DNA of 64,000 nt from IMG/VR virus record IMGVR_UViG_3300035520_000484, positions 98,993 to 162,992 of that record; one strand, written 5' to 3'. The position numbers and the translations under genes were made by a program. This DNA comes from a virus (taxonomy: Duplodnaviria; Heunggongvirae; Uroviricota; Caudoviricetes). The notes beneath the pieces were generated by a model that did not search any database, was not told the origin of the DNA, and saw only the letters and a program-made list of their open reading frames with translations. Positions 19,158-63,059 of the stretch are shown piece by piece; positions within the stretch are counted from its first letter, which is position 1; each line of letters begins with the position of its first letter.

Positions 19158-20862
19158 TGACATATTGTTAACACATCTTAAATTTCTATTGAATCATCTC
19201 TAAATTCTTTTTCTAATTTGGTAATGCAAATATAGAAAAATTTTATAAGTAATGCTACTCTTTAAATGTTAAAAAGAGTTAATTAGAAAGGAATATATGA
19301 TTTTAGAATTTCCTTTATTTTATTTGGAATATCTTTAGTCTCTAGTCCAAAATTAGGAAATTCTCTACAACCATATGCCCAATCTTCGCATACTATAGCA
19401 AGACCTTTTATAAATTCTTCAGGGATTGAAACATCAGAAAGTTTACGAATAACTTGATAATAAGTTATATCAGGTTTCTTAGCTTTTAGTTGTTCTACTA
19501 AATAATCTATCAAACCTACTAATGCAGCTTTAGTTGTAAAATCTGTGTCAAGATATTTTAAACTAAAATTTTGGCGATAGATTTCCTGAAGTTCTTCAAA
19601 TTTTAGAGCCATATTGCAAAATCTTTATGATTAGTTGCTACTTCCTTAGCTACAAGAGTAAGAAGGTATTTAAATTCCTTAAATCCTTCTATAAACATCT
19701 TTTTAGTCATGGGAACTACTTTAGTATAATAATTTGGAATAGTAGAAACAACTAAATAATTACCTTTAATAACAGGATTATCTATATTATAATGTTTCTT
19801 AGCTATTAATGCCAATAAGTATGAATACATAGCTAACTCCCTATTGTAATGATACTTCTGAATATTAATATCCATTTCACTTACAATTCTTCCTAAAGTC
19901 TTAATATCATTACAAGTTACAATATTAGAAATAGGATCTATTGTAAAATTATCCACTTTCGATTTTAATTTTAGGATAAATGGAGAAGTATCAGGTAGTT
20001 CTATTTTAATATCCAATAAAATAGCTAATTCATTTTCTGAAATAATCCCTCCAAATTCTGAAGTTGGGTGGAGTAAATTTTGTATAGACTTACTATTTTC
20101 GATAGCTGAGATGCACGCATATGCAACAGAACGTGATTTATAATCAAGATATAAATCAGACCTTGGATCGTCTCCACGACTCTCTAAATAGTCTTTTTTG
20201 GCTTGCCAATAATATTCACATTTATACTTGACTTCCGCAATTCGTTTTGGACTCAACTCTCCTTTATAATAATCTATTTTCTTAGCTGCATTAATTATAT
20301 CCTCATCGGACATTTTCCCAGATTTCCAGCATTCAAATAATTCATCAGCCATAGCACCCATCTTTCCAGTAGGCTTATCAACTGAATCTACAATATTAAA
20401 AAGATCTTTTTGTAGTATTTTACTATGTACTGCTGTACCTATATCAAGAGAAGAACTATAGATAGGTTTAAATCCATTAAAAAAAGCTTCAGGAGAACCT
20501 CCTTGTTCAGGATTAATTAAACCTAATCTAGAATTAGAAATATAATTACTATATTTTTTACTAAAATAAGTAGCATCATCAATCTTCTCAAGATATAGAG
20601 TATCTAGCAAGGGAGTTATTTTAATATCATTCAAGACTTAATCTAGATTTAAAATTATTTAAAACTTCTAGAAGTTCTTCAGGTTCATTAATACTCCATC
20701 CTGCTTCTCCTGTATGAATTCTAATGAACTTTCCACCACCTCCATCATCAGTTTCAAGAATTAGTTTTTGTATACCTCCATCAGGTCTAAAATCACTTTC
20801 ATCCTGACAGCAATCTACTTCTTGAACATATTCACAAGTCATTTTCTCTAATTCTACATGTT

Positions 20863-21384
20863 CTAACATAATTTTTTAAAATAAGGAAATAAAGTATTTT
20901 TAAATAAATGATAAACATCTTCAATTTCTTCTTTATCCAAAGTATAAACACGACCTATTGGACCCCAGTCTTTATTATTAGGAGAATCTAATAGTAAGCA
21001 AGGTATTCCTTTTAAATTAAGGTCTTTAAATACTTGTAAAGAATCATCAACATGAACATCAGCTCCAGATCGTTTAAGTTGAGAATATTTACTAAGACTT
21101 ACCCCAAATACTTGATATATAGGTGCTTTAGGTAAATTATTAACAGCTAATTGTTCTTTAATCCAATTTTTACTAATTAATCGAGAAGTACAATAGCAAT
21201 GGGGCATAAAATTAGGCATATTAATAAGAGGTTGAGTCATCCAAAACTCTTTATCCTCTCTTAATATGCCTCGCACATTTTTAGTAATCTCTAAATCAGA
21301 TTTAGGATTACCAAATTTTTTAATATAATGTTGATAAAAGTCAACAATTGTTCCGTCAAGGTCCAATGACACATTTAGGATCAT
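20863..21384 (-). CDS. HAD-superfamily phosphatase, 5'(3')-deoxyribonucleotidase-like.
   Basis: N-terminal LDLDGTIVDF is HAD motif I (DxDGT). Confidence 0.45.
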   Translation of the reverse strand: MILNVSLDLDGTIVDFYQHYIKKFGNPKSDLEITKNVRGILREDKEFWMTQPLINMPNFMPHCYCTSRLISKNWIKEQLAVNNLPKAPIYQVFGVSLSKYSQLKRSGADVHVDDSLQVFKDLNLKGIPCLLLDSPNNKDWGPIGRVYTLDKEEIEDVYHLFKNTLFPYFKKLC

Positions 21385-21819
21385 AATTCTTCTACGTCAA
21401 TAATATCACTTAATAATACTTCAGCTTCTTCCCACAGATTCTTTTTTGTTTCTTGAAAGTTAAGACCTTCAGTAAAATCATAAGTAATACTAAGATAGTC
21501 TGTTATTTTATCCTCACAATCAGATAAGGATTTTGCACTAAAAGAAACAATAAAATTCTCTTCAGCAGGATAATCACAAATTGAAATTACATATTTATTC
21601 ATTTACTCAAATTTATAATTTCATTAGTACAGCCGACGTATTTAAGTTGTGACCAGTTTTCAAAGACTATATTAAAGTCACTAATTTCTGGAAATTCTAC
21701 ATATGGTGAAATTGTATCCAATACAATTCTATCAGCATCTTCCTCAGATTTTGCATTTACTGAGAAAGTTTTGCATTTATTTGTATCCAGATCTTCTAAT
21801 ACATATAAAAAAGTATTCA

Positions 21820-22377
21820 TTTTTTAGTTGCTTGTAAAAAATAATAAAGTAATTCTACTGGTATGATTGCTAAAGTTCCTTTACTTATAGAATTTTCTTC
21901 AGCAGTTTTTTTCCATATCATTATTAAATCTCTAGGATCTGAACAATTTTCTCTAATAGTATAATAATTAGGAAGGTTTTGAGTAGCTTTACATTGAATA
22001 GCGTAAGGAAGTTCATTATTAACATCAGCAATATCTATTTTATTATTATCTAATTTTTTGCTTTCAGCTGCAGAACGACATACTCCTGTATATCCAATTT
22101 CTTTAAGTTTATTTACTACTTCTGTTTCTAAAGCTCCTCCTTTATTTCTACTTTTTTTAGCTTGATAAGATCTAAAAGTAGTATCATTAATCCATCTACA
22201 ATGAATCTTATCTTTTTTATTTGCAGAACCATTTCGAGATTTATTACAACGAATCTTAATAGCAGCTTCAGATAATTCCGAAGCTAAAGATGCATCTTCT
22301 AAAGATACATATGTTTCTTTTCTACCATTAGGATAAGTTATTTCAACTGATGTGTCTAGATTTTTCTACTTAGCCAT
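21820..22377 (-). CDS. Hypothetical protein (possible PD-(D/E)XK nuclease) with an in-frame TAG at codon 4. Start overlaps the 3' end of the primase gene.
   Basis: Minus strand ATG GCT AAG TAG AAA AAT... gives MAK(TAG)KNLDTSVEITYPNGRKETYVSLEDASLASELSEAAIKIRC...DIADVNNELPYAIQCKAT... (185 codons, ends TGA). No alternative start codon downstream of the TAG. Confidence 0.45.
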
Positions 22378-23369
22378 AGTAAAAATTGTTTAATTAAATT
22401 AATTGTTTTAGTTTTATTATTTAATTTATAATAATCACTAATATCTTTAGCATTTAATTTTCTAGGAATCCAAGTATATATTAATTCAGGGTGTTTTTTC
22501 TTAATGCGATTCATGAAAGATATTCCAGTTAAATCATTATCAAATAATACAACAATATGCTTAAATCTCTTTTTAAGACTTTCTAAAACAGTTTCACTGA
22601 TAAATTGAGTTTCTGAATTAGGTGCACAAGCTGGAATCCCTAATGAGTATAAAACCATTGTGTCTTTCATAGATTTTGTTATTACCAATAAGTTACCTTT
22701 TTTAGGTAAATGTTCTATACCTTGAATTTTTTGGGTAGGCCAATTACCAATAAAACGATATTCTTTACGTTTAGGAAAATAACATCTCCACAATTCCTCT
22801 CCGTGATACTTATTTCCATAATATCCAAAAATAGGACAATGTTGCTGAGATGAGGCAATTACATTTCCATTTAAGAATACGTGTTTACATGAATATACAT
22901 TAAATTTTTTTAGAATTTCAGGAGTTATACCATATCTTGACCACCACTTTAATTCTAAAGATGTAAAATCTTGAATTTCAACTTGAATCTTAGAAAATTC
23001 TTTTTCTTCTACTTTTATATCTTTTGATATAATTTTACCTTTATTCCTAACTAAAGTATCATCTTTATAAATGTTAAAGTCATTAGCAATTATTCGTAAA
23101 GATTCGGAATATGTACAATGAAACAATTCACATACATATCCAAAACAATTTAAAGATTGTCCAGTAGCAAAATCCTTATAAATTAAAGTACCACGATTGT
23201 TTCTATATAAAGAACAAGTTGGGTTGTTATCACGCCGTAGTTTACTTCTGAAGAGTTTCTTAGACTTAAACTCATCACCTAAGTAAAAGCCAAAGATTTG
23301 CTCTTCAGAAATTTTAGATAAAATTAAATCCTTATTTAATTTGGGCTTACTTATTAAACTAAATTTCAT
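22356..23369 (-). CDS. Putative DNA primase (TOPRIM domain). Terminates at TAG, followed six codons later by TAA.
   Basis: C-terminal HIVVLFDNDLTGISFMNRIKKK is a TOPRIM DxD motif. Sits at the start of the replication module. Confidence 0.45.
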   Translation of the reverse strand: MKFSLISKPKLNKDLILSKISEEQIFGFYLGDEFKSKKLFRSKLRRDNNPTCSLYRNNRGTLIYKDFATGQSLNCFGYVCELFHCTYSESLRIIANDFNIYKDDTLVRNKGKIISKDIKVEEKEFSKIQVEIQDFTSLELKWWSRYGITPEILKKFNVYSCKHVFLNGNVIASSQQHCPIFGYYGNKYHGEELWRCYFPKRKEYRFIGNWPTQKIQGIEHLPKKGNLLVITKSMKDTMVLYSLGIPACAPNSETQFISETVLESLKKRFKHIVVLFDNDLTGISFMNRIKKKHPELIYTWIPRKLNAKDISDYYKLNNKTKTINLIKQFLLWLSRKI

Positions 23370-24838: not shown

Positions 24839-25531
24839 TTATTTGTCTTCAGAGTAAGCTTTAATACTTTTAATTACATAATCTAGATCATTATCAATTA
24901 ATAGATCTGAAAACAATCCCATAGGAGACTTTGCAGTGCATGTACCATTAGAATTAGTAATAAACTTATACTCTACTTCATTATTTGCATTAGTAGAAAC
25001 CTTTGTAAATAATACATATGTAAATAAACCCTCAAGGGTAATTACGGTATCCAACATTTTCCCAACCGTTTTTATCTTAAAATAAGGATTAATGTTGTCT
25101 CCAGTATTTTCACTATGTGTAAGTACACATATATATAAATCATCACGCATATCCATCCCGGACTTTAGTGCTTCATAAGCATGTTTAGCCATATCAGTAA
25201 ATTTTGCATATCCTTTCTCATCTGCACGAGACATTGCTTCAAAAGCTTGCAAATATTGAAAATCATCAATTATGAGAATTTTCACATTAGTTAATTTACT
25301 ATTGATAATTCCCATCATCTTTTTAATATTATCAATATTTGCAGTTGTGTAGAAGTTACCTGAAATTTTACCATTTTCTACCTTAAAATCTGGATATTTC
25401 TTTTTTGCTCCTTTAATACCTGGGCGCTTTCCAGTAGTTGAGATAATAAAAGTTTCAGAAGGGTTTAGGTTTCTAATAGAAGTTGTCTTTCCTGATCCAC
25501 TTTCGCCTACAATTGCTATGAGTTCTGACAT
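24839..25531 (-). CDS. P-loop NTPase (replication-associated ATPase).
   Basis: Walker A VGESGSGKTTS. Walker B-like ILIIDD. Confidence 0.5.
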   Translation of the reverse strand: MSELIAIVGESGSGKTTSIRNLNPSETFIISTTGKRPGIKGAKKKYPDFKVENGKISGNFYTTANIDNIKKMMGIINSKLTNVKILIIDDFQYLQAFEAMSRADEKGYAKFTDMAKHAYEALKSGMDMRDDLYICVLTHSENTGDNINPYFKIKTVGKMLDTVITLEGLFTYVLFTKVSTNANNEVEYKFITNSNGTCTAKSPMGLFSDLLIDNDLDYVIKSIKAYSEDK

Positions 25532-28846: not shown

Positions 28847-31800
28847 TGCTTAAAACATAAATTAGAGCAGACCAATTATCTACTCCTAATATTATTAATT
28901 TATGACAATTTAGAACAATGTCACAAATTATCTTTAACATTGTTCTTCCAAAGTAACCCCTAAATACTTAGCTACCTTCTTAATTTGATCCATTCGTTCT
29001 TCCCAACTTTCAATATGATACATAACCTCATTTTCAAGTCGGAATAATACCTTATTGCGAAGAACTGTAAGTTGGTCTGTTGTAAGTTCAGAATATTTCT
29101 TAGGTTTCAAAGTTACCATTGCACGAAGCTCATTATAATTAAGTCCAGAAGGCTTAACAATAAGACGTACAGAAGGTTTAATTCCCAAACGTTCTTTTAC
29201 AACTTCAAGTTTACTACGAGTCTTACCCTCTTTATCCTTTTCATCAAATTCCTTAATTTCAGAAGGAGTTAGATAGATACCCATATTAAGAATAAAACTA
29301 AAAGTAATATGCTTTGTGTCAATACTACCAAGTTGGTCTAGACATCCATCCAATACATTTTCAATAGAGATGCGTTCAAATTCTCGAGGAAGCCCACCAG
29401 TACAAGCAGCAATAGAAATATTCTTAAGTTCCTTAGAAGGAAATTCTTCTTTATGAGCATTCATATATGTACGAATATCCTGTACATAAAGATGACGAGG
29501 ATAAGGTTTTGCGTCTGCACAAATTGCTCCTGATTCTAATTTACGAAGGAATAGTTCAGTATTACATTTACTACGTTGATCTTTAATAATATCAAGTAGA
29601 ACATATCTACCAGGATTTAGCCTATCATTACTATAAAGCATAGAATAACAATGATTATAAAATCTATTAAGTTGTTCAGGCGTGGCATCTACAAGTCGTA
29701 GTTCATCTTGTGAACCATCAGATTTACGTGCAAATTTCCATACAAAAGATTTTACATCATTGCTTTTTGCATTAATAGCTTCAGTAAGCTTTTCTTTCAT
29801 CATTGTCATAACTTATATTTTTCATAATTATAAAAATTTTAATCTACATTACATACTTTTGGTCTGTTTCTTCTGGCTTTTTAATAAACTTATTAAATTG
29901 TACTCCATCATATTGATAAGGAACCATTTTCTCGCCATCAAACCATTTATCTATTCCTGCTAAAATCTCTTTATAATCTAAATAACCTATTTCTCCAATT
30001 TCTAGATTTCTATGTTCCCAATTTGGATATCTTGTACACATGATATATTTAGAATAGCTAATAGCTTCCTTTTCTAAACATTGAAATACATATGTAGTAT
30101 ATCCTCCTAAACTAGTTTCTTTTACTAGAAGTTTTGCAAGTACGGTCATTGTACAAAATACATCCATATTTAGCCATATCACAACGACATTTTTCAATAC
30201 CCTCAAAACATGGATATTTTGCACATGATTTACAAGACCTTTCTGGATATTTTAGTTTTACTCCATCCTCATCTCTAATTACTTTACTCATTTTAACAAT
30301 AAAAATACTAACAGTCCAACACTGACAGTTAATCCACCTACTTGCCAGTATTTTAACGTATTACTTTTACTTGATAATTGTTGATTAAGATTTTCTATCT
30401 TATCAAGATATTCTTGATTTAATACTTTATATTCACCAAGTTGTACTTTTCTCAAAGAATCAACTTGAACTAACTGATTATTTACTTGAATATAGTTATT
30501 AAGTTGTTCATTAAGTAAATTATTCTCTGTTAGTAATTTTTTATGTTCTACAAAAATGAGATTAGCATATTTAATATCAGAAACTGTTACTGATACTGTC
30601 GAGTCGTTCTCTATTGGCTGTGATATATTCGAGGAAAAAGCTATAATCCTCGTTAACATCATTACTAATAATATGCTTAAAATCCTCTTCATATTGTTTA
30701 TTATTACTATCAATTTTCTTATAAACAGTATCTATTCTTTCAACTAAACTATCTCGGACAATATAAATACTGTCTATAGTTTGATCAGTTGTATCATTAA
30801 TATTAGTTTGTTTATAAGAAGATTTATATAAGAAATATGCCTGAACAATAAATAGAATACAAAGTATAGCTATAATTATATAATACTTTTTCATCTTTTC
30901 TTTTTTAGTAACTCAAATTCAGGTAAATTATTTTCTTTTATAAAACTTTTAGGTGCCCCTAATAAAGTAATAAAGCGGAATAAGCTAAAATTCTTAAACC
31001 GCTTTATTACTTTACATTCTTTCACATTAAGTAATTTTCCCGATGTATAATATCTACATACAATAGTATTTACTCGATTAGGTTCTACTCTTTCAATACT
31101 TACTTCATATAGAAATTTAGGAGTCTGCTCAATTTGAAGATCTTGGTATCTATACGTTATAGGTTTTACCATTATAACAGTATTTAGATACAAGTGACTT
31201 CACACCAGCTTTAGTTTTAATTGTATAATTTTCTAGAACATCATTTACCTTTGTGTTCAAAACATTCTTAGAGTATGTACTATGAGGAAACTTATTATTG
31301 TTTACTAGATAAACAATTAATTTAGCTTCATAAGTAGCTCTAGATTCAGGAATAGAATGAAAATGTCCATCACGTTCCTTATAACGTAGCTTTTCATTAC
31401 GTAGGATTCTTTTTTCATTCTTAGTCTTACTCCAAACTGAAGGATCACGAGGTGCTAATACTCCATATCGAATCAAACCATGTTGAAGCATTACCTTATC
31501 ATCATGAACATTAATCCAACGATTTTCTTTCTTTTCCATAATTAAATTTTTGATTTTTTAATAGACTTGAATTTATGAAGAACTTCATACATTTTAAAGA
31601 AGCTATTCAGTATTCTAGTAATTTTTATATTATGATGAATATTATATGTTTCATTCCAATCACCTGTTTTATAAATCCATCGAATCTGATCAGATGTTAC
31701 ATTTGGTAATGTATACTGATAATATTCTAGGAAGTGACCAGAACAATTTATAGTTCCAATATCGGCTATATGAAGATAATAATGATTAGCTGTATTTAAT

Positions 31801-52887: not shown

Positions 52888-53049
52888 AAGGTACCTGTAC
52901 CCTCCCCCTCCTAACTCACAAAATTTTTTTCATCTAGAAAATTTTTCAATTTGAAATTGATTTCCAATTACTATGGGGAGGGGGTTAATTATATTAGATA
53001 GGAATTTACTATAACTCCTTGAAAATCAGACACTTATAAAGATTTTTAT

Positions 53050-53115
53050 TTTCTACAGCGCAATAATATTTTCTGTAGGACAATAATATTTTTTGTAGAG
53101 CAATACTATTTTGCT
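53050..53115 (+). repeat. Three tandem roughly 22-bp iterons upstream of the RepL-like gene (putative replication origin).
   Basis: ttctacagcgcaataatatttt / ctgtaggacaataatatttttt / gtagagcaatactattttgc. Followed by an AT-rich 12-bp inverted repeat (aaatattttattt...aaataaaatatt). Confidence 0.6.
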
Positions 53116-53130
53116 CCAGAAATATTTTAT

Positions 53131-53180: not shown

Positions 53181-53618
53181 ATGTATCAGCAAACTAATAC
53201 TCGTGAAATTGTAGATTGTGAAACAGGTGAAGTTAAAATAGTTGAGACTTCTAAAGTATTCACTGCAAAAGTAAGTTCAGATTCCTTTTATATGACATTT
53301 GTAGATTATCTAAGTCCTATCTTTCAATTGAAATCGGATGCTGCTAAAACTTTATTAGTATGGTTATGCAAACACGCTGACTTTAATACTGGAGTTGTAT
53401 CTATTTCTCCTGCCGATAGAAAACAGATATGCATAGAATTGAATATTACTAATTCAACTATCAGTAACAACTTAAAAAAGCTGGTAGAATTAAAACTCAT
53501 TTCCGGAAATGGAGGAAGATATTTAATTAATCCCCAAGTCTTCTGGAAGGGGGATCTTAAAGAAAGAACTAAACTACTTAAAGATAAAGAGATTCAAATA
53601 ACATTCTCTATAGATTAA
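53181..53618 (+). CDS. repL: RepL-like plasmid/phage replication initiation protein.
   Basis: Architecture and motifs resemble firmicute RepL: VDCETGEVKIVE..., central LLVWLCKHADFNTGVVSIS, wHTH ICIELNITNSTISNNLKKLVELKLISG, and the ending GGRYLINPQVFWKGD. Iterons lie immediately upstream. Confidence 0.6.
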   Translation: MYQQTNTREIVDCETGEVKIVETSKVFTAKVSSDSFYMTFVDYLSPIFQLKSDAAKTLLVWLCKHADFNTGVVSISPADRKQICIELNITNSTISNNLKKLVELKLISGNGGRYLINPQVFWKGDLKERTKLLKDKEIQITFSID

Positions 53619-53699
53619 TAACACTTTTTAACACATATCTTATTGCATATTCAACTTAGAGATAGTATATTTGCAATGTAATTAAAAATTAAATTTAAA

Positions 53700-54089
53700 A
53701 TGAATATTGAAAGACTTTTTGAACTTGCGCTAAAAAATCCTGAACATATAGAAATTGAATATTCTAATGTAAATGGTAAAGAGAAACTAATAGTAAATGG
53801 TGAAGATGTGACTGAAGGTGAAGTATTCGATGATACTAAAACTAAAGAACTTGTAAAAACATATAAAGATAATATTGAAGAACTTGATGATGATACTTTT
53901 GTAGAAGCAGTTGAAAAAATGGATGAACACATGAATATGTATGATTTTGACCAACTTCTTAATAAAGAATCATATACCTTTTATGAAGATGTTCAAATTA
54001 CAGAAATGATTGATGTTGCTAATAGTATTATTAAGCGAGTTATTTCTGATAAAATAAATGATCTTTTTAACCTTAGAGCCAGATTCTAA
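53700..54089 (+). CDS. Acidic hypothetical protein.
   Basis: Intact 129-aa ORF in the plus-strand module. Confidence 0.4.
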   Translation: MNIERLFELALKNPEHIEIEYSNVNGKEKLIVNGEDVTEGEVFDDTKTKELVKTYKDNIEELDDDTFVEAVEKMDEHMNMYDFDQLLNKESYTFYEDVQITEMIDVANSIIKRVISDKINDLFNLRARF

Positions 54090-54117
54090 ACATAGTGGGA
54101 ATCTTTCCCACTAATAC

Positions 54118-54191
54118 TGCCCAATAGTATAAAGGTTTAATTACGACGCACTCTAAATGCGAAAATAACAGTTCGAGTCTGTTTTGGGCGA
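54118..54191 (+). tRNA. Amber suppressor tRNA (anticodon CUA), reading UAG.
   Basis: Acceptor TGCCCAA / TTGGGCG. D-arm GTA-TAAAGGTTTAAT-TAC. Anticodon stem ACGCA / TGCGA with loop CTCTAAA (C32 U33 C34 U35 A36 A37 A38). T-arm AACAG-TTCGAGT-CTGTT. Discriminator A. Preceded by the hairpin AGTGGGA-atct-TTCCCACT. Confidence 0.8.
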
Positions 54192-54193
54192 CT

Positions 54194-54475
54194 ATGAACA
54201 TATCTTTTATTTATAATAGAAAACTTTATCAACCTAAGAATCCAGAAAAGAAATTAAAGCAATTAGGAATTACTTGGGATGATGTAAAAATTATTAATAA
54301 CAAATCTAATGAAATTAAAGAAGAATATGAAGATCCAAACAGATTATACTATTTTATAAATCCGAAAACTGGATGGTCTATAACTTCTATAAATCCAGTA
54401 TGTAAATATGATGATTATGAACAATGTACTAAAGAAACTTTAGAAACTTACTGGTCTCAAAACAGGAAAGTTTGA
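54194..54475 (+). CDS. Hypothetical protein.
   Basis: Intact 93-aa ORF immediately after the suppressor tRNA. Confidence 0.35.
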   Translation: MNISFIYNRKLYQPKNPEKKLKQLGITWDDVKIINNKSNEIKEEYEDPNRLYYFINPKTGWSITSINPVCKYDDYEQCTKETLETYWSQNRKV

Positions 54476-54649: not shown

Positions 54650-54690
54650 GAAACCCGACATGGAAATGATTCCGTGCCGGGTTTTATTAT
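54650..54690. terminator. Bidirectional hairpin terminator at the convergence of the plus-strand module and the minus-strand late operon.
   Basis: aaaCCCGaCAtggaaatgattccgTGcCGGGtttt. T-runs on both strands. Confidence 0.55.
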
Positions 54691-55449
54691 TTAATAATGT
54701 TTAGCAGGTACTGGAGCACCTTGATATTGAGTAAACTAAAATCTTGAAGGACCATATGAAAGATTACCAGTGTCTGATAAAGGAGCTAAAGTAGCAGCTG
54801 CCGCATCAGAAGCTCTTTCATCAATACTCTTACTTAAACTACTAGCTTGAGAAGTAGCGTAGCTAAAAGGTGCAGTAGGAAATCCTGCATATCTCTAATA
54901 AGCTCCAAATGTAGGACTAGTTGAATATCCGTAATGTCCTGAAAGACTAGGAGTTTGAATAGTTCTATATGAACTAAGACTAGGTGTAGTTATTTCAGGA
55001 AGTGTTGAATTATCAAAAGCAGGTTCAGAAACATCTGAAGTTGTTACTTCATTAGGAGTAGATGATTTAACAGTAGATGACGTAACAGATTTACTAGTAG
55101 AGATACGCTATCTAGGCTTTAATCTAGTATTAGCAGTAACATCATGAGTTTTTAAATATGTGTCATTTGCAATTTTATTATCTAGTTCTTCATCTGCTGC
55201 TGTATATGTATAATCATCAAACTATTCATCACCTTTAATAACATCTCCTGCTTTAGGAGTTCCTTTAAATAATTTAGTACTTTTAGGAGTTACCCATTCA
55301 TCAGGAACTTCAATTACTTGTCCTATTTTTAATTTAACACTAGGTGTATGGTTAAGCTCTACTAATTTATTGTATTGCCCCCCCCTACCTGTTAATGCTT
55401 TGGCAATACCCCAATAGGTATCGCCTTTTTTAATTATGTACTTTGCCAT
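54691..55449 (-). CDS. LysM-domain protein with a Ser/Thr-rich C-terminal region. Four in-frame TAG codons.
   Basis: N-terminal AKYIIKKGDTYWGIAKAL...YNKLVELN...LKIGQVIEVP is a LysM domain. Reading continues through TAG at 55222 to TAA at 54691. Confidence 0.6.
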
Positions 55450-55562
55450 TTTGTTTTAATTTATTTTAATTTATTTAATTTATTTTACCACCATATTTCT
55501 TCATGTGTATAAAAGGACATAGCCTAATTGTTAATCCTCTTATTTTATTTGTTCTTAAAGTT

Positions 55563-55935
55563 TCAATAGCCTAAAGTATATCTTATATTAGGTATTCTTT
55601 CGGTTATTGGTTCAATGTTAAAATAATCCACAATAGAAGTTCCGTTCTCAGGAGATTCAAATATCATATGAGACGCATCTCTACCATATGCATGAGGCAC
55701 CTTAAGTTTTTCAAGATAGCTATTAGTATTAAATAAAGACACGGAGTTTAAATTTTTAAACATGCCGTCATTCCCTGTATGCATGCCATTAGCATTTATT
55801 GTAATATTTGACGAAAATCTAGGAAATCTCTAACTCCACCATGTTTCTATAGGGCCTTTAGGATTTATGGTCTTGGGAGTATACAAAGCGGTTTTGTTTC
55901 CATACTTCTTAGACCATATTGGATTAAATACAACA
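55563..55935 (-). CDS. Hypothetical late protein (one in-frame TAG). Start overlaps the upstream stop (ATGA).
   Basis: Open with TAG as sense: MNVGNPDVVFNPIWSKKYGNKTALYTPK...W(TAG)RFPRF...MHTGNDGMFKNLNS.... Ends TGA. Confidence 0.5.
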
Positions 55936-57016
55936 TCTGGATTACCTACATTCATATAATACATTCCGTTTTTCCTTCGAAAGTTTTTCCTTGGATAACA
56001 GAAAACGCATTTATTAAATCTTCTTTTGATATATTATTGGGAAGGTTCATCCTTCTTAAGAATGTGTTAGATTGTTTCATTAAGTCTTTAACATAATCTT
56101 CAAGATTTATTATATTCCCATTTCTATAATCATTTGCTATTTGCTGTAAGTACTACGGGGATTCTTTAGCTATATTATACAATACTTTATTATCTTTAAT
56201 AGTCTAAAGGTCTTGAAGATATTGATCGGATGCATTTCTACCCTATTCTAATCCGTCTTTTATATTTTGTAAAGTTGATTCGTCATTAAAATAAAAATCT
56301 CCTTTAGGAGTAATTCTATACTCATTTTCTAAAGCCTATAATTGAGGATTAAGTTCTCTTATTTGGTTTAATGATATATTAACAGGTTCTCCATTTCTAT
56401 TATATTTTTGAGAAAATTGGCGCACTAAAGAAGGATCTTTTATATATTTAAGAAACCTGCCTCTAATATAAGGATTTCTTAATCCTCTCCTTCCTTGTTT
56501 GTTCATATTTTTAGCTAACCACCATACATCTTTAAAATTACGAGAAGTTCTAGCAAGAGCACTTACTCCTTTACCTAAATACTACATACCTTTAGTTGTA
56601 ACATAATCTTCTAAACCTGTGTATGGGGCAACTAAATAGAATAAATCATTACTCTATTCTAAAGGAGCCTCTGATAAGAACGCTCTTTTTCTTGTATTAT
56701 TACCCCATATATCTGTATAGTTAAATCCATTAGCATCCTAAGTAAGTAATGTAGGTAATTGCCAAGGAACAGTGTTAGGATTAACTCCTGTTGTTACTGT
56801 TCCTGCATTTCTTGATTCTGGCTAAGTAATATGAACTATATTTCCATTTACATCTGTATAAATCTCATAATCAGGATTACTATCAAGAACTTCCTATACT
56901 GTTTTTACATTACCATTTGTATCTACAATTTCAGTTATATTTCCCCAATCAGATATATCTTTGACTTTTCTTCTAAAAAGACCGACATTTTTAGTATCAG
57001 CATTATCAAGTGTCAT
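55932..57016 (-). CDS. Hypothetical late/structural protein (about 12 in-frame TAG codons).
   Basis: Open with TAG as sense for about 361 codons: MTLDNADTKNVGLFRRKVKDISDWGN...ECII-stop. Start overlaps the end of the upstream gene. Confidence 0.55.
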
Positions 57017-57758
57017 ATTGTCTAGAATTTTTAAATCGTTGTATTACAGAACCTTGTTTCGCCATAGGAAGAATGTCAGAGGAATCATTCTAAGCTACTT
57101 CATTAAACAATTTTATTAAATCTTTATCTTCAAACATATCTAATTTAAATAGGTTGATTGCATCTCTATGAGAATCTAGAAATTTCTAATCAACAATTTG
57201 TTCTGGTTTCATTTTAGTTGCGTACCTAAATTCCATCATTCGAGAATATATTTCATTAGGATCTAACAAATATTCTGCATTATCACTACTCCATCCATCT
57301 TTTGCTTTAGCTGTCTATTCGATTTCACCAATAGCATATATTTGAGGATTAGCTCTCATAGCATGGGTATATTCATGAAGTTCTGGATACGTATACTTCT
57401 CTTCTTTAAATATAGGAGGTCTTATATGAACTTCATGCTTACTAGGACTGTAATATCCTAAAGCTAATCCACCATCCCAATCGTGGAGTGTATCATTATA
57501 AAGTTTAGCAGATGCAGCATTTTCTATTTGACTATAGAAATTCTTATTTACATAAGTTCTTCTATTAAAAGAATTTGCTCTAGCCCATTCTTTCTACGGA
57601 ATGTTATAAGTATCACGAGAAGTAAAATGAAATATTCCTCCTAAATTGTTATATAACTAAGCTCTTCTGTGATTTAACCAATTAGCTAGCCATTCAATAG
57701 TTTGACTATCACTTTTAGGAGGTTTATAATTAGAAATAGGTGTAGTATAATCTGACAT
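57006..57758 (-). CDS. Putative zincin-like metallopeptidase (HExxH), late gene with six in-frame TAG codons.
   Basis: MSDYTTPISNYKPP...YTYPELHEYTHAMRANPQ... contains HEYTH. Ends TGA. Start overlaps the TAA of the upstream gene (TAATG). Confidence 0.5.
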
Positions 57759-59274
57759 TATTGTTTTTGTTGATTATTTAATAAATACATTCCTCCTGAA
57801 AATATTCCTACTTTCATCATAGCTTCTTTTGCTTTAGAAACTATTTCATTTAATTTAGGATACTTTTTAGCTAACTCTGTTAATTCTTCAGAAGATGCGA
57901 ATAATAAGTTATCAGTATCTATTCCTGTAATATTAGAAATTTCTTTAATTATAGATGAAGTATAAGGCTAGTCTATTTCCATTTTTAAAATTTCTCCTGA
58001 AGGAGTATTTTTGATAACTTCATCTAGTTCTTTTCCAAAAATCAGATTTAGGGATTCCTGCTTTTCCGCTTCAGTAAGATTAGAAGGTCTTTGATAGAAA
58101 GAATAGTTAGCTTTAGGAGTATTAGATACTACTCTTCTAAATCCATAATTAGGTTCCCATATATAAGCAGAAGTATTTTCAAGATTTAGCTAATCTTCAG
58201 AGAATGGGATCCTTCTTCCTGACATATCTCTCTTAGCTACCCGTGCATTTTTTGTAGCAAATTGTAAAGGTTCTCTAGTTACTAAAAGTCCTGGATGACT
58301 AGCATCAATTCCATTAACTATATCACCATCATACCATAAACCTCCCTATTTAAACATTGGATTGTCAAAGGTTTTACCAAAATCGAAAGTTCCAACATTC
58401 GTTTCTACTAAATTAACATTTTCAGTATTAGGATAATCTACTCTAACCTTCCTAGAATTTAAAAAATCTTTAACTATATTTGTAGAACCCTATCTATAAT
58501 TTAAATTCGGGTCATTTATTTCCACATCACCTGAACGATATCTCATCTTAGGAGCTAAGTCTGGAGTTTCTACCTCTCCTAATGGCATTCTACTAAGTTT
58601 ATATCCAAGTATAGATGGCTTGACAGCATTGTAAGAAATCTGTCCAACTCTATTTAGAAATGGAAGACTACTACCTCCAACTACAGAACCTATAAGCTAT
58701 CCTAAATATGGAGAATCATACTATTCCCCAATGTATCTACCACCTTCTCCTCCAATCCATGATCCTATTAATGGTTTTACTCCAATATTTCCAAATAACC
58801 CCAGCAGTCCAAGATCAATAACACCAGATATAGCAGCATTATTAAGTACCTACTAATATCCAGGTATATTATAAGCTCTCATTAATTGCCCCTGTCCACC
58901 TCTAAATAAACTACCAATGAAAGGTACATAGTCTGTAGAATGTGACATAATTTTATCTCCATTTTCTATATTATTTTTTATCTATTCCTTTTCTCTCATA
59001 TATTCTCCAGCCTATTCTTGAGATTGCTTCTAAGCATCTGTTCTATTATCCTAAATTACTTTTCCAGTAGACTACAACTATTTTTTAGGAACCTCTACAT
59101 ATCCATTTTCATATGGAACTCGAGTTACAGATGCATTATGTTTAGCTTCTGATTCTTTAGCTATGTTATATGCAAGTAATCTCTACTCAATATTTATAGG
59201 AGCGGTAGTATTATCAGATAATTCTTTTTGTACGAAAGAGTTTTTAATAATTGGTTTTCCCATATATATTATTT
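57758..59274 (-). CDS. Hypothetical late/structural protein, about 505 aa, Gly-rich hydrophobic segment. About 17 in-frame TAG codons.
   Basis: Open with TAG as sense: MGKPIIKNSFVQKELSDNT...GVIDLGLLGLFGNIGVKPLIGSWIGGEGGRYIG...LLNNQQKQ-stop. The ORF track shows only tiny fragments here. Confidence 0.55.
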
Positions 59275-59279
59275 GCTAT

Positions 59280-60045
59280 ATCTTTTTCTAAAATTTTCAA
59301 TAACATTAATTATTCTACCGCCATATTTATAAGACATATTATTTGCGTACTGATGGATAGTTTCTACATATCCTTTTTCTCCAGAATTAATTTGATTTAA
59401 AGGGATTTTGAACATGTTGATAAGAATATCTTCATCTATATTAGTATCCCATTTATTATAATCAGATTGATGCTTTTTATATTGATATTTAGCATCTTCT
59501 GTTACCCTATCAACATCCCATCCAGATTTTTCCCAACCTTTTAATAATGCAATATAAGGACTATCATCAAAGTATCTCCAATTACTGGTTATAAGAGAAG
59601 GCCCGATACTATCTGGCGAATCCGCATAAATCCAATGGCGAGGAGTACTCTTTCCTAAATAATATCTATTAGATCTGCCAGGATCTGTAGCTCCCGAAGA
59701 CTCTTTAATAGCTATAGCTAATCCCTATTTAGGAGATATTCCAGTAGCTTGTGAAGCCTGTACAATTTTATCAAATACCTCTATAGGTATGTTATAAGTT
59801 CCTCTGCCTTTAACAGTAACAGGTTTAGTTTTACCAGAAAGTTGAATAAGCTGTTTTTCTTCATTATTTATTCTATGAACATATGTAGTAACCGCTTTAT
59901 CAAAAGTTTTTTTAAATTCTGGAGAAGATTTATATTTCTAATATGTGGAAAATTTTATAAAAGGAAATAAAATATACTTTTTTAATCCACCTCCTGAAAG
60001 CCATATTTCATCATTTGATTCATTATGAATATATACTTGTTCCAT
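59280..60045 (-). CDS. Late protein, possibly lysozyme-like (ES motif). One in-frame TAG.
   Basis: MEQVYIHNESNDEIWLSGG...IVQASQATGISPK(TAG)GLAIAIKESSGATDPGRSNRYYLG... Start overlaps the upstream TAA (TAATG). Confidence 0.45.
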
Positions 60046-62030: not shown

Positions 62031-62230
62031 TATTCAGTCTTTATATTTTTAAATATACCAGTAACAGAATCTATTCCAAGTAATAAACAGATTGCATAAA
62101 TAAAAGTGTCAATCATTTCAGGAGCTTGTATTCCATTAATGGTACAAAAGATTAATACACCAATAATTACTAAAAATCCAATGACACCACACACTCTTTT
62201 AGAAGATATTCCTGAGTGTGAGGTGACCAT
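62030..62230 (-). CDS. Small membrane protein (2 TM), holin-like.
   Basis: 66 aa: GVIGFLVIIGVLIFCTINGI and FIYAICLLLGIDSVTGIF. Its TAA overlaps the ATG of the downstream gene. Confidence 0.45.
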   Translation of the reverse strand: MVTSHSGISSKRVCGVIGFLVIIGVLIFCTINGIQAPEMIDTFIYAICLLLGIDSVTGIFKNIKTE

Positions 62231-62247
62231 TTTCTTTATAAATTCAA

Positions 62248-62805
62248 TTAATTTCTACATTGTATAAAATCTAACAATAATAGTTCTTTATCAGTAGTTG
62301 CTTCAGAATTATGTTTCTTAGCAAACCACCAAGGCCAAAAACAATATTTAGAGTTCATAGATGAAATATACTAATCATAAAAAGATTCATCATAAGGAGA
62401 TTCATATAATCTTTTCCAATCAAACTTTCTAGTAAATTGCCAGAAAGTAATATTAGGAAAGGTTTCAATTATATATTTAATAAAATCAACAAATAAATTT
62501 TCTTGTCGACTATCTTCTTTAGATGTTTCTAGAATTAATCTAATAGTACATCCACCCATATCATTTAAATATTTAAAATAATCAACTACATTACCTTTAT
62601 ATTTAGCTATCCCATGACAGAAATAAGGATTCATATGTTTATCAAATCTGATTCTAAAATCAAAATCCCTAATTCCATATTGTTCATATTGTTGTGCTAT
62701 AGTTTTAGATTGACATTTAGCTATCCAATTAAATGGATAAATCCACCAATTTTTTAAAGGTAGATATGTAGCTGAATTATGAGTTCCTATTCTCATTAGA
62801 TACAA
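62248..62805 (-). CDS. PLC-like phosphodiesterase (PI-PLC X-domain-like). One in-frame TAG.
   Basis: MRIGTHNSATY resembles the PI-PLC active-site motif PGTHDS. A second His sits in FCHGIAKY. Reading continues through TAG at 62371 to TAA at 62248. Confidence 0.4.
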
Positions 62806-63053
62806 AGAGCTGACCAGCCAACTTGAGAACCAACTAAAGCTAAAACTGCATCAACTAATAGCATCTTCCATGTAGGAACTGAATCAAAATCTGAGGATTT
62901 AACTTTATGGAAATATCCTACTAACATAGAAAGAATAAATCCAACTATCATAGCAACTGCTACTACTCCTGTATTAGCAAGAATACCTGCTGAAACAAGT
63001 GCTGTTGCTAATGTAAAAATCATATTATTCTGTACTTTTGTATTTTTAAACAT
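62796..63053 (-). CDS. Small membrane protein (2-3 TM), holin candidate.
   Basis: 85 aa, hydrophobic segments IFTLATALVSAGILANTGVVAVAMIVGFILSMLVGYF and LLVDAVLALVGSQVGW. Sits between muralytic and phosphodiesterase genes. Confidence 0.45.
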   Translation of the reverse strand: MFKNTKVQNNMIFTLATALVSAGILANTGVVAVAMIVGFILSMLVGYFHKVKSSDFDSVPTWKMLLVDAVLALVGSQVGWSALCI

Positions 63054-63059
63054 AGTTTT

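What the first reader, a model, noticed from the sequence alone, without database searches (positions are those of the whole stretch)
21820..22377. Early-module gene with a TAG at codon 4, overlapping the 3' end of the primase gene.
The sequence ATG GCT AAG TAG AAA AAT CTA GAC... opens a 185-codon frame (possible PD-(D/E)XK nuclease, DIADV...ELPYAIQCK) with no alternative start after the TAG. The track misses it entirely. A single early TAG could act as a translational gate that delays expression until the suppressor tRNA accumulates.
Basis: seen in the sequence. Interest (0 to 1): 0.55.

Follow-up and report, generated by a model that had tools for sequence, protein, structure and literature searches.

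The report
Amber-codon gate on phage resolvase gene
A real gene of a crAss-like phage, encoding a DNA-junction-cutting nuclease, has a TAG 'stop' at codon 4 that nearly all its relatives keep near their own starts, so the enzyme can probably be made only once the phage's suppressor tRNA reads TAG as glutamine.

Summary
On the minus strand, ATG (22377) GCT AAG TAG opens a 186-codon frame that ends at TGA (21819-21817). It overlaps the primase gene's 3' end by 22 nt, and the next in-frame ATG/GTG/TTG is codon 153.

The window is a TAG-recoded crAss-like phage. It has a tRNA-CUA at 54118-54192, and 42% of Gln-type codons in its late genes are TAG.

The protein has an N-terminal homing-endonuclease-type DNA-binding domain and a C-terminal Hjc/Hje-like PD-(D/E)XK nuclease domain (E84, D115, Q128, K130). 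It sits in a recombination/replication module.

The decisive result is comparative:
- In 157 related loci (117 distinct genes, 8 clades below 60% identity), 114 carry an in-frame TAG at codon 3-7.
- None has CAA/CAG at that position.
- The rest of the gene has 591 CAA/CAG codons and only 3 TAG.
- About 860 neighbouring genes are essentially TAG-free, apart from TAG-rich homing-endonuclease-like inserts.

An unrelated resolvase family (DUF1064) sits next to the primase in Suoliviridae crAss phages. It shows the same N-terminal TAG in 44 of 73 distinct genes.

So TAG itself, not glutamine, is under selection. The best reading is a single-codon translational gate that ties resolvase synthesis to the suppressor tRNA. 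The timing is inferred, not shown.

The parts
21817..22377 (-). Complete gene: ATG 22377-22375, 186 sense-position codons including the TAG at codon 4, and stop TGA 21819-21817. It encodes a two-domain nuclease.
   Evidence: An identical protein (P0001) is in the public collection. 324 homologues were found, plus 157 related loci.
22366..22377 (-). Leader: ATG GCT AAG TAG (Met-Ala-Lys-amber). The gate codon TAG is at 22368-22366.
   Evidence: TAG is at codon 3-7 in 114/117 distinct homologous genes, the -1 codon varies (16 kinds), and CAA/CAG never occurs there. In the model this part is a disordered tail (pLDDT below 50 for residues 1-3; first strand at residue 11).
22162..22356 (-). N-terminal domain (about residues 8-72): a beta-beta-alpha-alpha DNA-binding module of the kind found in homing endonucleases.
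21820..22155 (-). C-terminal Hjc/Hje-like PD-(D/E)XK nuclease domain (residues 75-186). Catalytic codons are E84 (22128-22126), D115 (22035-22033), Q128 (21996-21994) and K130 (21990-21988).
22356..23369 (-). DNA primase gene. Its last 22 nt overlap the start of the nuclease gene in another frame. It ends at TAG 22358-22356, with a back-up TAA at 22340-22338.
54118..54192 (+). Suppressor tRNA with anticodon CUA. This is the decoder the gate depends on. It lies in a small plus-strand operon (53181-54475).
   Evidence: ARAGORN and Rfam tRNA at 52.8 bits. TAG = Gln is supported by the GIY-YIG 'YIG#T' motif at 12972-12088 and by published proteomics (PMC9523058 abstract; summarised in PMC10136315).
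21599..21820 (-). Next gene downstream (73 aa). Its ATG (21820-21818) overlaps the nuclease stop codon (ATGA), so the nuclease gene sits inside a tightly packed co-directional array.

Best explanation
Window 22377-21817 (minus strand) is a genuine gene of a TAG-recoded crAss-like phage. It encodes a two-domain structure-specific nuclease that is most likely the phage's Holliday-junction/branch resolvase. The N-terminal domain is a homing-endonuclease-type DNA-binding module. The C-terminal domain is an Hjc/Hje-like PD-(D/E)XK domain with an E-D-QxK active site.

Translation starts at the ATG. After three codons the ribosome meets UAG. With host release factor alone, it releases a tripeptide and no nuclease is made. 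Once the phage tRNA-CUA (54118-54192) is available, UAG is read as glutamine and the full protein is produced.

Selection keeps a stop-type codon at this spot, not the amino acid. The TAG therefore works as a one-codon translational gate. It uncouples the nuclease from the primase and recombination genes with which it is packed and overlapped, and couples it to the code switch that also licenses the TAG-rich virion and lysis genes.

A plausible biological reason is that a junction-cutting enzyme made early would cut replication and recombination intermediates, while late in infection it is needed to debranch DNA for packaging.

Shown here: the gene, its start, the TAG, its conservation and specificity, the suppressor tRNA, TAG = Gln, and the nuclease fold. 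Inferred: the resolvase activity, and above all the timing (late versus early).
For: 1. Anatomy. The frame opens ATG-GCT-AAG-TAG, and there is no other start until codon 153.

2. The recoded-code context:
- tRNA-CUA is present.
- Genes at 54691-63998 and 36613-38586 carry up to 17 in-frame TAGs each.
- Late genes use TAG 65, CAA 81 and CAG 10 times.
- TAG falls on the Gln of a GIY-YIG 'YIGQT' motif.

3. Position-specific conservation:
- There are 157 loci, 117 distinct genes and 8 clades below 60% identity.
- 114 genes have TAG at codon 3-7, and 0 have CAA/CAG there.
- Flanking leader codons vary freely.
- Elsewhere in the gene there are 3 TAG and 591 CAA/CAG codons. Invariant Q128 is CAA 103, CAG 14, TAG 0.

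4. Specificity. In the same loci, 765 neighbouring ORFs have no internal TAG. 87 have two or more TAGs; the ones translated are homing-endonuclease-like inserts. Of the 12 with a single TAG, only one repeats across loci, an HNH endonuclease-like ORF in five near-identical loci that has an internal ATG after the TAG.

5. TAG-less members keep the same ATG and leader, so the protein does start upstream. In L014 a GIY-YIG gene inserted right behind the original 'MGKT#V' leader.

6. Convergence. The DUF1064-type 'Holliday junction resolvase' of Suoliviridae crAss phages also sits in the replication module just after the primase, directly adjacent in cr56_1. hhalign finds no detectable homology to this family (probability 0.2%).
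- In cr56_1 it starts ATG ACG TAG.
- In 73 distinct IMG/VR genes, 44 have an N-terminal TAG, 24 have a single later TAG and 5 have none. Only 39 of 340 neighbouring ORFs have any TAG.
- The standard-code relative cr118_1 has no TAG.

7. Function:
- AlphaFold mean pLDDT is 82.6.
- Neighbours are a Sak4-like annealase, the primase and an exonuclease VIII-like nuclease.

8. In cr56_1 and cr130_1 the tRNA-CUA lies upstream of, and co-directional with, the TerL/portal block, immediately so in cr56_1. This fits late expression of the decoder.

9. Precedent for the logic. T4 keeps late-acting genes silent when they lie on early polycistronic mRNAs, by a different device. Examples are I-TevI, segB and mobE, and the review's cited sources include the gene 49 endonuclease VII paper (PMC2988022).
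Against: - No expression data exist, so timing is not shown.
- In this window the tRNA-CUA is in a separate plus-strand operon whose timing is unknown.
- The gate is not obligatory. The TAG-recoded cr130_1 has no TAG in its resolvase.
- Several more distant two-domain relatives lack it (P0126/L257 has CAT; also P0134, P0142, P0144, P0150).
- Resolvase activity is inferred from fold similarity only. The Pfam Hjc score (15.6 bits) is below the curated cut-off of 21.1.
- The third catalytic position is Gln, not Glu.
- Related loci are phylogenetically non-independent, so the raw counts overstate the number of independent observations. Eight clades, 16 different -1 codons, and a second family are the fairer measure.
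Confidence: 0.65

Rival explanations
1. The TAG acts as a dose limiter or fail-safe, not a timer. It is conserved because it keeps a potentially toxic nuclease at low level throughout infection through incomplete suppression. Alternatively it keeps the gene silent wherever the phage's suppressor is absent, for example in a carrier state, an abortive infection, or DNA taken up by other cells.
For: The same conservation data fit any model in which 'stop-ness' matters. Nucleases are typical toxic genes. Timing of the tRNA-CUA operon in this window is unknown.
Against: Late genes carry up to 17 TAGs in 513 codons, so suppression must be near-complete when it is on. A single TAG would then reduce yield very little. 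In cr56_1 and cr130_1 the suppressor lies upstream of the late TerL/portal block, which points to a temporal switch.
Confidence: 0.2
2. The start is miscalled. The protein begins downstream of the TAG at a non-canonical or reinitiation start. The upstream ATG-xx-TAG is then a chance extension or a tiny upstream ORF. This is how single N-terminal stops in integrases were dismissed in earlier work (Borges et al. preprint).
For: 30 of 114 homologues have GTG/TTG/ATG within three codons after the TAG. Standard-code gene callers start 34 of the 120 listed database proteins there.
Against: The window gene has no ATG/GTG/TTG before codon 153, and 83 of 114 homologues have none within 10 codons. The Leu codon that is sometimes TTG is CTA, CTG, TTA or CTT in others. 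An ATG 2-6 codons upstream of the TAG is present in every gene. TAG-less members use that same ATG and leader. A phage suppressor tRNA and abundant TAG read-through elsewhere make read-through the simpler explanation.
Confidence: 0.05
3. The TAG is a neutral synonym. It is just one of three Gln codons in a code-15 phage and happens to sit at a Gln position.
For: TAG makes up 42% of Gln-type codons in the late genes of this window.
Against: CAA/CAG never replaces TAG at this site in 117 distinct genes, yet CAA and CAG interchange freely at true Gln positions (Q72, Q128, Q133), which never become TAG. Surrounding leader residues are not conserved. When the TAG was lost it was deleted or replaced by Lys or His codons, not Gln.
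Confidence: 0.02
4. There is a primase-nuclease fusion by -1 frameshifting on the A-run (AGA AAA ATC) at the overlap, so the ATG and TAG are irrelevant.
For: The nuclease frame is -1 relative to the primase frame, and an A5 run lies in the overlap.
Against: The frame relation and the overlap are not conserved. In L002 the primase ends about 80 codons upstream in the same frame, with stops in between. In L006 and L037 the overlap is 4 nt (ATGA). In L028 and L031 there is a gap. There is no X XXY YYZ heptamer and no stimulatory RNA structure (z-score -0.97). The ATG plus TAG is conserved regardless.
Confidence: 0.01
5. The gene is a decaying pseudogene or the remnant of a selfish homing endonuclease, inactivated by a nonsense mutation.
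For: The N-terminal domain resembles homing-endonuclease DNA-binding modules. Homing endonuclease genes are common in these loci.
Against: There is one stop only and no frameshifts. Catalytic residues are invariant across 56 aligned database homologues, and the protein stays alignable down to about 40% identity across the 117 distinct genes. The position after the primase is fixed in about 150 loci. The 'nonsense' codon is itself the most conserved codon of the leader.
Confidence: 0.01

Closest known systems
Stop-codon recoding (genetic code 15, TAG to Gln) in crAss-like, Lak and other gut phages, proposed as a regulator of late and lysis genes (Yutin et al. 2021, PMC7886860; Borges et al. preprint 10.1101/2021.08.26.457843; Peters et al. 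2022, PMC9523058)
   Same: A phage-encoded tRNA-CUA is present. Replication genes are compatible with the standard code, and structural and lysis genes are rich in TAG. The underlying idea is the same: in-frame stops block translation until the code switch. Borges et al. even suggest this for an intron homing endonuclease inserted in an early gene.
   Different: In the published cases many TAGs are scattered at ordinary Gln positions of late-module genes, and the argument rests on codon-usage bias. Here there is a single codon at a fixed place (codons 3-7). It lies in a non-conserved leader of a core gene inside the replication module, is kept across deep divergence, and never interchanges with CAA/CAG. 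Earlier work treated single N-terminal stops as start-codon errors. In the papers I searched and read, I found no report of this feature.
T4 translational control of late-acting genes carried on early polycistronic mRNAs (I-TevI/II/III, segB, mobE; also soc, e, 25/26, with the paper on gene 49 endonuclease VII among the cited sources) by an RNA hairpin that hides the ribosome-binding site (review PMC2988022)
   Same: The regulatory problem and logic are the same. A nuclease gene is embedded among early genes and co-transcribed with them, and is kept untranslated until late. T4's Holliday-junction resolvase (gene 49) is among the sources cited for this mechanism. The details of gene 49 regulation come from my recollection of Barth et al. 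1988, which I could not open.
   Different: The device differs completely. T4 uses a start-site-occluding hairpin plus a late promoter. Here there is an in-frame amber codon plus a suppressor tRNA. No stable RNA structure surrounds this start.
Archaeal Hjc/Hje Holliday-junction resolvases (Pfam PF01870; PDB 1ob8, 1hh1, 1gef, 2wcw)
   Different: The third acidic residue is Gln (QxK), invariant in this family and in more than 100 stand-alone relatives. There is an extra 70-residue N-terminal DNA-binding domain. The sequence score is below Pfam's threshold. Activity is untested.
DUF1064-type 'Holliday junction resolvase' of Suoliviridae crAss phages (for example cr56_1 gp33, YP_010112291.1)
   Same: The genomic place is similar: in the replication module just after the primase, directly adjacent in cr56_1. 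It has the same predicted role and the same N-terminal basic leader followed by TAG (MT#, MKK#, MKQKKK#, MRRKK# and others).
   Different: It is an unrelated sequence family (hhalign probability 0.2%) with a single domain. Its gate is less strict: a whole clade carries its only TAG at about codon 33 instead, and some recoded phages have none.
Conditional amber mutants and engineered amber-codon switches (expression that depends on a suppressor tRNA)
   Same: The principle is identical: one early UAG makes a gene's expression strictly dependent on a suppressor tRNA. This comparison rests on general knowledge.
   Different: Those are laboratory constructs or mutants. Here the arrangement is natural, is maintained by selection, and the phage supplies the suppressor itself.

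Membership tests
Code-15 (TAG to Gln) recoded phage with its own suppressor | A phage-encoded tRNA with anticodon CUA | tested here: met
   ARAGORN finds a tRNA(cta) at 54118-54192. Rfam scores it as a tRNA at 52.8 bits.
Code-15 (TAG to Gln) recoded phage with its own suppressor | Multiple in-frame TAGs inside long, otherwise intact genes, mainly virion and lysis genes | tested here: met
   Genes at 54691-63998 and 36613-38586 carry 2-17 in-frame TAGs each, while the replication region is almost free of them.
Code-15 (TAG to Gln) recoded phage with its own suppressor | TAG aligns with glutamine in homologues | tested here: met
   The GIY-YIG gene at 12972-12088 has 'KVYIG#T' where L014 has 'KCYIGQT'. 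cr52_1 has 'VVHT#KQVDE' where cr56_1 has 'VVHTQKQVDE'. Published proteomics agree (PMC9523058 abstract; summarised in PMC10136315).
Recoded-stop translational gate (Borges-type temporal regulation) | The in-frame recoded stop is maintained by selection and is not a neutral synonym | tested here: met
   TAG is present in 114/117 genes against 0 CAA/CAG at the site. The gene body has 3 TAG against 591 CAA/CAG codons. A second, unrelated family shows the same feature.
Recoded-stop translational gate (Borges-type temporal regulation) | The protein is absent before, and present after, the suppressor tRNA is expressed | not testable with these tools
   This needs time-resolved proteomics, ribosome profiling or reporter assays. 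The only indirect hint is that the tRNA-CUA lies upstream of the late TerL/portal block in cr56_1 and cr130_1.
Hjc/Hje Holliday-junction resolvase (PF01870) | PD-(D/E)XK alpha/beta fold of the Hjc type | tested here: met
Hjc/Hje Holliday-junction resolvase (PF01870) | Sequence score above the family's curated threshold | tested here: not met
   The Pfam Hjc score is 15.6 bits against a cut-off of 21.1. Profile-to-PDB Hjc hits have E 0.01-0.02. The protein is therefore a distant relative, not a member by Pfam's rule.
Hjc/Hje Holliday-junction resolvase (PF01870) | Catalytic tetrad E ... D ... E-x-K | tested here: inconclusive
   E84, D115 and K130 are invariant, but the third acidic residue is an invariant Gln (Q128). 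The same QxK signature is found in more than 100 stand-alone relatives.
Hjc/Hje Holliday-junction resolvase (PF01870) | Dimeric enzyme that cleaves four-way junctions | not testable with these tools
   This needs biochemistry. The only context support is the neighbouring genes: a Sak4-like annealase, the primase and an exonuclease VIII-like gene.
Free-standing homing endonuclease | Sporadic presence or absence among close relatives, with variable insertion sites | tested here: not met
   In 20 loci mapped in detail, spanning all clades, the gene sits in the same place after the primase, occasionally with one inserted gene between them. True homing-endonuclease-like inserts in the same loci are sporadic and TAG-rich. 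Only the N-terminal DNA-binding module resembles homing endonucleases.
Programmed -1 ribosomal frameshift fusion with the upstream gene | A conserved slippery heptamer and a conserved frame relation to the upstream ORF | tested here: not met
   The frame relation and the overlap vary or are absent among homologues. There is no heptamer and no significant RNA structure.

The most novel reading that the evidence does not exclude
Crassvirales have evolved a dedicated single-codon 'amber timer'. One UAG sits in the first 3-8 codons of the resolvase gene. It is kept for its stop character, and it arose independently in two unrelated nuclease families that occupy the same slot after the primase. This would mean the phage's code switch is used as a gene-specific regulatory channel inside the early replication module, not only as a block-wise property of late modules. 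It would also be the cleanest comparative proof so far that recoding is regulatory. A corollary worth testing follows: in phages reported to carry a tRNA-CUA with 'no signs of amber suppression' (Zeta crAss-like phages, PMC12386605), a gate codon like this one, which gene callers hide as a start-site artefact, may be the suppressor's only client.
Probability: 0.5. Interest if true: 0.8.

Novelty: new variant of a known kind. Interest (0 to 1): 0.68.

Why it matters
Why some phages reassign a stop codon is still an open question. The leading idea, temporal control of late genes, rests mostly on codon-usage bias across whole modules.

This gene offers a much sharper case. It has a single amber codon at a fixed place, and selection demonstrably maintains it as a stop-type codon. 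It sits in a gene with an obvious reason to be held back (a junction-cutting nuclease among replication genes), and it recurs in an unrelated nuclease family.

That makes the hypothesis directly testable with a one-codon change (TAG to CAG) or a small reporter.

There is also a practical consequence. Standard and even code-aware gene callers miss or truncate these genes. For example, the cr52_1 resolvase is unannotated, and 34 of the 120 listed database homologues start at a downstream GTG/TTG/ATG. As a result, a core recombination function is systematically under-annotated in crAss-like phages.

Tried and rejected
1. Control on a late gene. I tried search for related loci with the 501-aa product of the TAG-rich late gene 57758-59296 to compare TAG turnover. 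It returned nothing, because a single-protein query with Q at TAG positions gives poor patterns. I used internal controls instead: Gln columns of the same gene, and neighbouring genes.

2. Other early TAGs in the window.
- 12048-10447 ('MITF#EEPLPAGG...') is the downstream part of a split ribonucleotide-reductase-like gene, not a gate.
- 12972-12088 is a GIY-YIG endonuclease with TAG at a true Gln.
- 50033-49581 and 52101-51781 look non-coding after the TAG.

3. RNA structure around the start gave z = -0.97, so there is nothing there. Rfam around the suppressor tRNA found only the tRNA.

4. Homology between the two resolvase families was not detectable.

5. TGA-gate test. If the gate is functional, TGA-recoded relatives should carry TGA instead of TAG. 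I found no TGA-recoded member of either family in the material I could reach, and no 'W' leaders among database proteins, so this test could not be done.

6. Code status of the TAG-less phages (L030/L073, L254, L257) could not be settled from flanks of 3-10 kb. These flanks show no in-frame TAGs and at most one TAG terminator (in L073).

7. I considered and dropped a minigene or peptidyl-tRNA drop-off ('bar'-like) role for the Met-Ala-Lys mini-ORF. Nothing supports it.

8. The +4 base after the gate TAG is a purine in 102 of 114 genes, against about 61% for late-gene TAGs in the window. This is suggestive of a suppression-friendly context, but it is confounded by shared ancestry and by the Lys/Glu-rich sequence, so I did not use it.
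Full report
**1. The observation**

The feature lies on the minus strand. Read 5' to 3', the sequence is ATG(22377-22375) GCT AAG TAG(22368-22366) AAA AAT CTA GAC and onward. The frame stays open for 186 codon positions to TGA (21819-21817), which overlaps the ATG of the next gene.

The upstream ORF 23369-22356 is a DNA primase (PHROG 12622 E 3.6e-51; Toprim_2). It ends at another TAG (22358-22356) in a different frame, so the two genes overlap by 22 nt.

After the TAG, the first in-frame ATG/GTG/TTG is codon 153.

**2. The genome context**

The window has 30% G+C. It carries six tRNA genes, including a tRNA with anticodon CUA at 54118-54192 (Rfam confirms a tRNA).

If only TAA and TGA are treated as stops, long genes appear at 54691-63998 and 36613-38586 with 2-17 in-frame TAGs each. 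The region from about 1 to 36000, which holds the replication genes, is almost free of them. In the late genes, TAG accounts for 65 of 156 Gln-type codons.

A GIY-YIG endonuclease gene at 12972-12088 has TAG exactly where a related gene has the Gln of 'YIGQT'.

The primase is most similar to primases of Suoliviridae crAss-like phages (35-39% identity). The contigs that hold relatives of the nuclease gene are 95-190 kb long.

This is therefore a crAss-like phage using TAG = Gln. That situation is described in general terms by Yutin et al. 2021 (PMC7886860), Borges et al. (preprint) and Peters et al. 2022 (abstract; summarised in PMC10136315).

**3. What the gene encodes**

The sequence-family hits are weak but consistent:
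- PHROG 244 ('RusA-like Holliday junction resolvase'), E 1.2e-6, on residues 67-134.
- Pfam Hjc (15.6 bits, below the 21.1 cut-off) and PDDEXK_15.
- A profile of 56 homologues hits the archaeal resolvases Hjc and ST1444 in the PDB at E 0.01-0.02, aligning E84, D115 and the xK motif.

E84, D115, Q128 and K130 are invariant. The Gln replaces the usual third acidic residue.

A library-wide profile search finds 606 representatives. More than 100 of them are stand-alone 105-140-residue nucleases with the same E...D...QxK signature.

The neighbours are a Sak4-like annealing protein (24839-25531), the primase, a deoxyribonucleotidase-like gene (20863-21384) and an exonuclease VIII-like nuclease (19603-20634). 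A structure-specific nuclease, probably the phage's junction resolvase, is the best reading. The activity itself is inferred.

**4. The decisive evidence is comparative**

I searched IMG/VR with alignments that excluded the N-terminal leader, so the search could not favour the TAG. With two GenBank records and the window, this gave 157 loci and 117 distinct coding sequences. They fall into eight clades at less than 60% identity.

- In 114 of the 117, an ATG is followed after 2-6 codons by an in-frame TAG. Its position is codon 3 in 5 genes, 4 in 39, 5 in 46, 6 in 23 and 7 in 1. The conserved '(K)(D/E)LNTS' start of the first domain follows.
- The codons between ATG and TAG differ in number and identity. 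There are 16 different codons at the -1 position.
- No gene has CAA or CAG at the TAG position.
- The rest of the gene holds 591 CAA/CAG codons and only 3 TAGs.
- At real Gln columns the two ordinary codons interchange freely and TAG never appears: Q128 is CAA 103 and CAG 14; Q72 is 62 and 19; Q133 is 37 and 42.
- 83 of the 114 have no ATG/GTG/TTG within ten codons after the TAG.

The exceptions are informative.
- In L014 a GIY-YIG endonuclease gene has been inserted directly behind an 'MGKT#V' leader that matches the nuclease leader of its relatives. The nuclease has a new ATG.
- L030 and L073 (sister sequences), L254 and L256 have the TAG deleted or replaced by a Lys codon behind the same ATG.
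- More distant two-domain relatives lack the TAG (P0126/L257 has CAT; also P0134, P0142, P0144, P0150).

So the gate characterises a large sub-clade, not the whole family.

In the public protein collection, all but 4 of about 73 full-length calls show Q in the leader. 34 of the 120 listed homologues were called from a downstream start.

**5. Specificity**

In 20 loci mapped in detail, spanning all clades, the gene follows the primase, occasionally with one inserted gene between them.

Among the other plus-strand ORFs of 120 or more codons in these loci, 765 have no internal TAG. 87 have two or more TAGs; the ones I translated are homing-endonuclease-like inserts, which also shows that these phages are TAG-recoded. 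Only 12 have one TAG, and none of those forms a conserved family with the TAG behind the only start.

In the window's own late genes, the first TAG lies at codon 27 or later. A TAG at codons 3-7 is therefore peculiar to this gene.

**6. An independent second case**

In crAssphage cr56_1 (Suoliviridae), the gene right after the primase is annotated 'Holliday junction resolvase' (DUF1064 type). It starts ATG ACG TAG AGG. It is not detectably related to the window's protein (hhalign probability 0.2%).

cr56_1 is TAG-recoded. It has a tRNA-CUA, with 15 TAGs in TerL and 12 in the portal gene.

Findings in named relatives:

| Phage | Code status | Resolvase N-terminus |
|---|---|---|
| cr52_1 | not checked separately; gene carries three in-frame TAGs | MKQKKK# |
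| MT835560 | not checked separately | MGQKKK# |
| cr125_1 | not checked separately | MKPKNKKK# |
| cr118_1 | standard code | no TAG |
| Three Steigviridae phages (PhiCrAssBcn19, DAC15, cr126_1) | not checked here; cultured members use the standard code, from memory | no TAG |
| cr130_1 | TAG-recoded | no TAG |

In 80 IMG/VR loci of this family there are 73 distinct genes. 44 have a TAG within the first nine codons. 24 have a single later TAG, mostly one clade at about codon 33. 5 have none. Only 39 of 340 neighbouring ORFs have any TAG.

Two unrelated nucleases in the same genomic slot thus carry the same device, though less strictly in the second family.

**7. Interpretation**

The TAG is kept for what it is, not for the amino acid it encodes. 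It lies in a disordered, otherwise unconstrained tail (pLDDT below 50 for residues 1-3; first strand at residue 11).

The simplest mechanism runs as follows. With release factor alone, the ribosome stops after Met-Ala-Lys. With the phage tRNA-CUA, it reads through and makes the nuclease.

The gene is wedged between overlapping neighbours in a co-directional array, so translation is the only level at which it can be regulated separately. Placing the stop at the very start avoids making truncated, possibly harmful fragments.

Late genes with up to 17 TAGs require near-complete suppression when the switch is on. This argues for an on/off (temporal or conditional) gate over a mild attenuator.

In cr56_1 and cr130_1 the tRNA-CUA lies upstream of, and co-directional with, the TerL/portal block, immediately so in cr56_1. 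In the window it lies in a small plus-strand operon of unknown timing.

T4 offers a precedent for the logic. Late-acting genes that lie on early polycistronic transcripts, including homing endonucleases, are kept untranslated until late by a hairpin over the ribosome-binding site, and the review's cited sources include the gene 49 resolvase paper (PMC2988022). Here no significant RNA structure surrounds the start. An amber codon does the job instead.

**8. Rivals**

- A start-codon miscall is contradicted by the absence of downstream starts, the universal upstream ATG, and the TAG-less members that use the same ATG.
- A neutral Gln codon is contradicted by the codon tables.
- A -1 frameshift fusion with the primase is contradicted by the non-conserved frame relation and overlap.
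- A pseudogene is contradicted by conservation.
- A dose-limiting or fail-safe role cannot be excluded without expression data. It shares the core claim that the stop character is functional.

**9. Novelty**

The general idea that recoded stops time late genes is published. It has even been suggested for an intron endonuclease inside an early gene.

I did not find any of the following in the papers I could search and read:
- a position-specific, deeply conserved single amber codon at the start of a core replication-module gene;
- its recurrence in two unrelated resolvase families;
- the demonstration that it never exchanges with CAA/CAG.

Earlier work explicitly treated single N-terminal stops as annotation errors. 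I rate this as a new variant of a known kind.

**10. Limits**

- There are no expression data.
- The resolvase function is inferred from fold and context.
- The related loci are not independent samples.
- The gate is absent from some recoded relatives.
- The prediction that opal-recoded relatives would carry TGA could not be tested with the material in reach.

Noticed in passing
window 12972-12088 (-) and 12048-10447 (-): A GIY-YIG homing endonuclease gene (MLIYKVTNKINGKVYIG#T...) has TAG at the Gln of the 'YIGQT' motif. It sits directly upstream of a frame that opens '...F#EEPLPAGGSCLLGSLNLSEFV', which looks like the downstream part of a ribonucleotide reductase. The reductase gene is probably split by an intron that carries the endonuclease.
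   Followed up: partly
window 22356-22358 and 22338-22340; also the 3' ends of ORFs at 427-1197, 20839-21396, 29781-30251, 31129-31557, 34776-35171 and 41306-41638: The primase and several other replication-region genes end at TAG under the standard code, with a TAA/TGA 2-27 codons further on. After the code switch they would gain short C-terminal extensions. In related loci TAG ends only 41 of 1270 long ORFs, against 349 for TGA.
   Followed up: partly
window 53040-53125 (+): Three tandem copies of a motif of about 22 nt (ttttctRYAG.GCAATAATATTTT) lie just upstream of the small plus-strand operon (53181-54475) that contains the suppressor tRNA. This may be an operator or promoter region controlling the code switch. 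A G+C-rich hairpin at about 54655-54690 looks like a bidirectional terminator.
   Followed up: no
L014:2334-3002 (IMGVR_UViG_3300028797_000900): A GIY-YIG endonuclease gene is inserted between the primase and the nuclease. It begins with 'MGKT#V', the same leader plus TAG that the nuclease has in close relatives (L015, L029). It therefore appears to have captured the gate, and the nuclease has a new TAG-less start.
   Followed up: partly
NC_055890.1 24420-24812 (cr56_1 gp33); NC_055888.1 63627-63983 (cr52_1): The annotated 'Holliday junction resolvase' of cr56_1 begins ATG ACG TAG. The homologous gene in cr52_1 (MKQKKK#..., plus two internal TAGs) is not annotated in the GenBank record, which shows only a short 'hypothetical protein' upstream.
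   Followed up: yes
window 36613-38586 (-) and 60045-62033 (-): Two large TAG-rich proteins share a near-identical N-terminal segment (TPNS.NQLEK.DA...ADERVH.QF.QNSW..F.GTQA.GAAAAG). The first one sits alone, about 16 kb away from the main TAG-rich block, among TAG-free genes.
   Followed up: no
L005:2056-2955, L018:3533-4333, L082:479-1099: Sporadic insert genes in the replication module of related phages carry repeated CxxC motifs and a C-terminal '(I/V)DFY(L/I)...IEYNG' nuclease-like motif. Each has 7-10 in-frame TAGs. They look like homing-endonuclease-like genes that would also be translatable only after the code switch.
   Followed up: no
L153-L157:3512-4003: An HNH/NUMOD-type endonuclease gene just downstream of the nuclease begins 'MSY#KCARMEEWKV...'. 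The TAG is at codon 4, but an internal ATG lies at codon 8, so it is unclear whether this is another gate or a start miscall.
   Followed up: no
literature (PMC12386605) and related Zeta crAss-like genomes: Some Zeta crAss-like phages are reported to encode a tRNA-CUA with 'no signs of amber suppression'. A leader TAG like the one described here would be invisible to that kind of survey and could be the missing client of the suppressor.
   Followed up: no
NC_055901.1 82000-82390 (cr130_1): The GenBank record of this TAG-recoded crAss phage annotates a phage-encoded tmRNA (SsrA). This is notable for a phage that manipulates translation termination.
   Followed up: no
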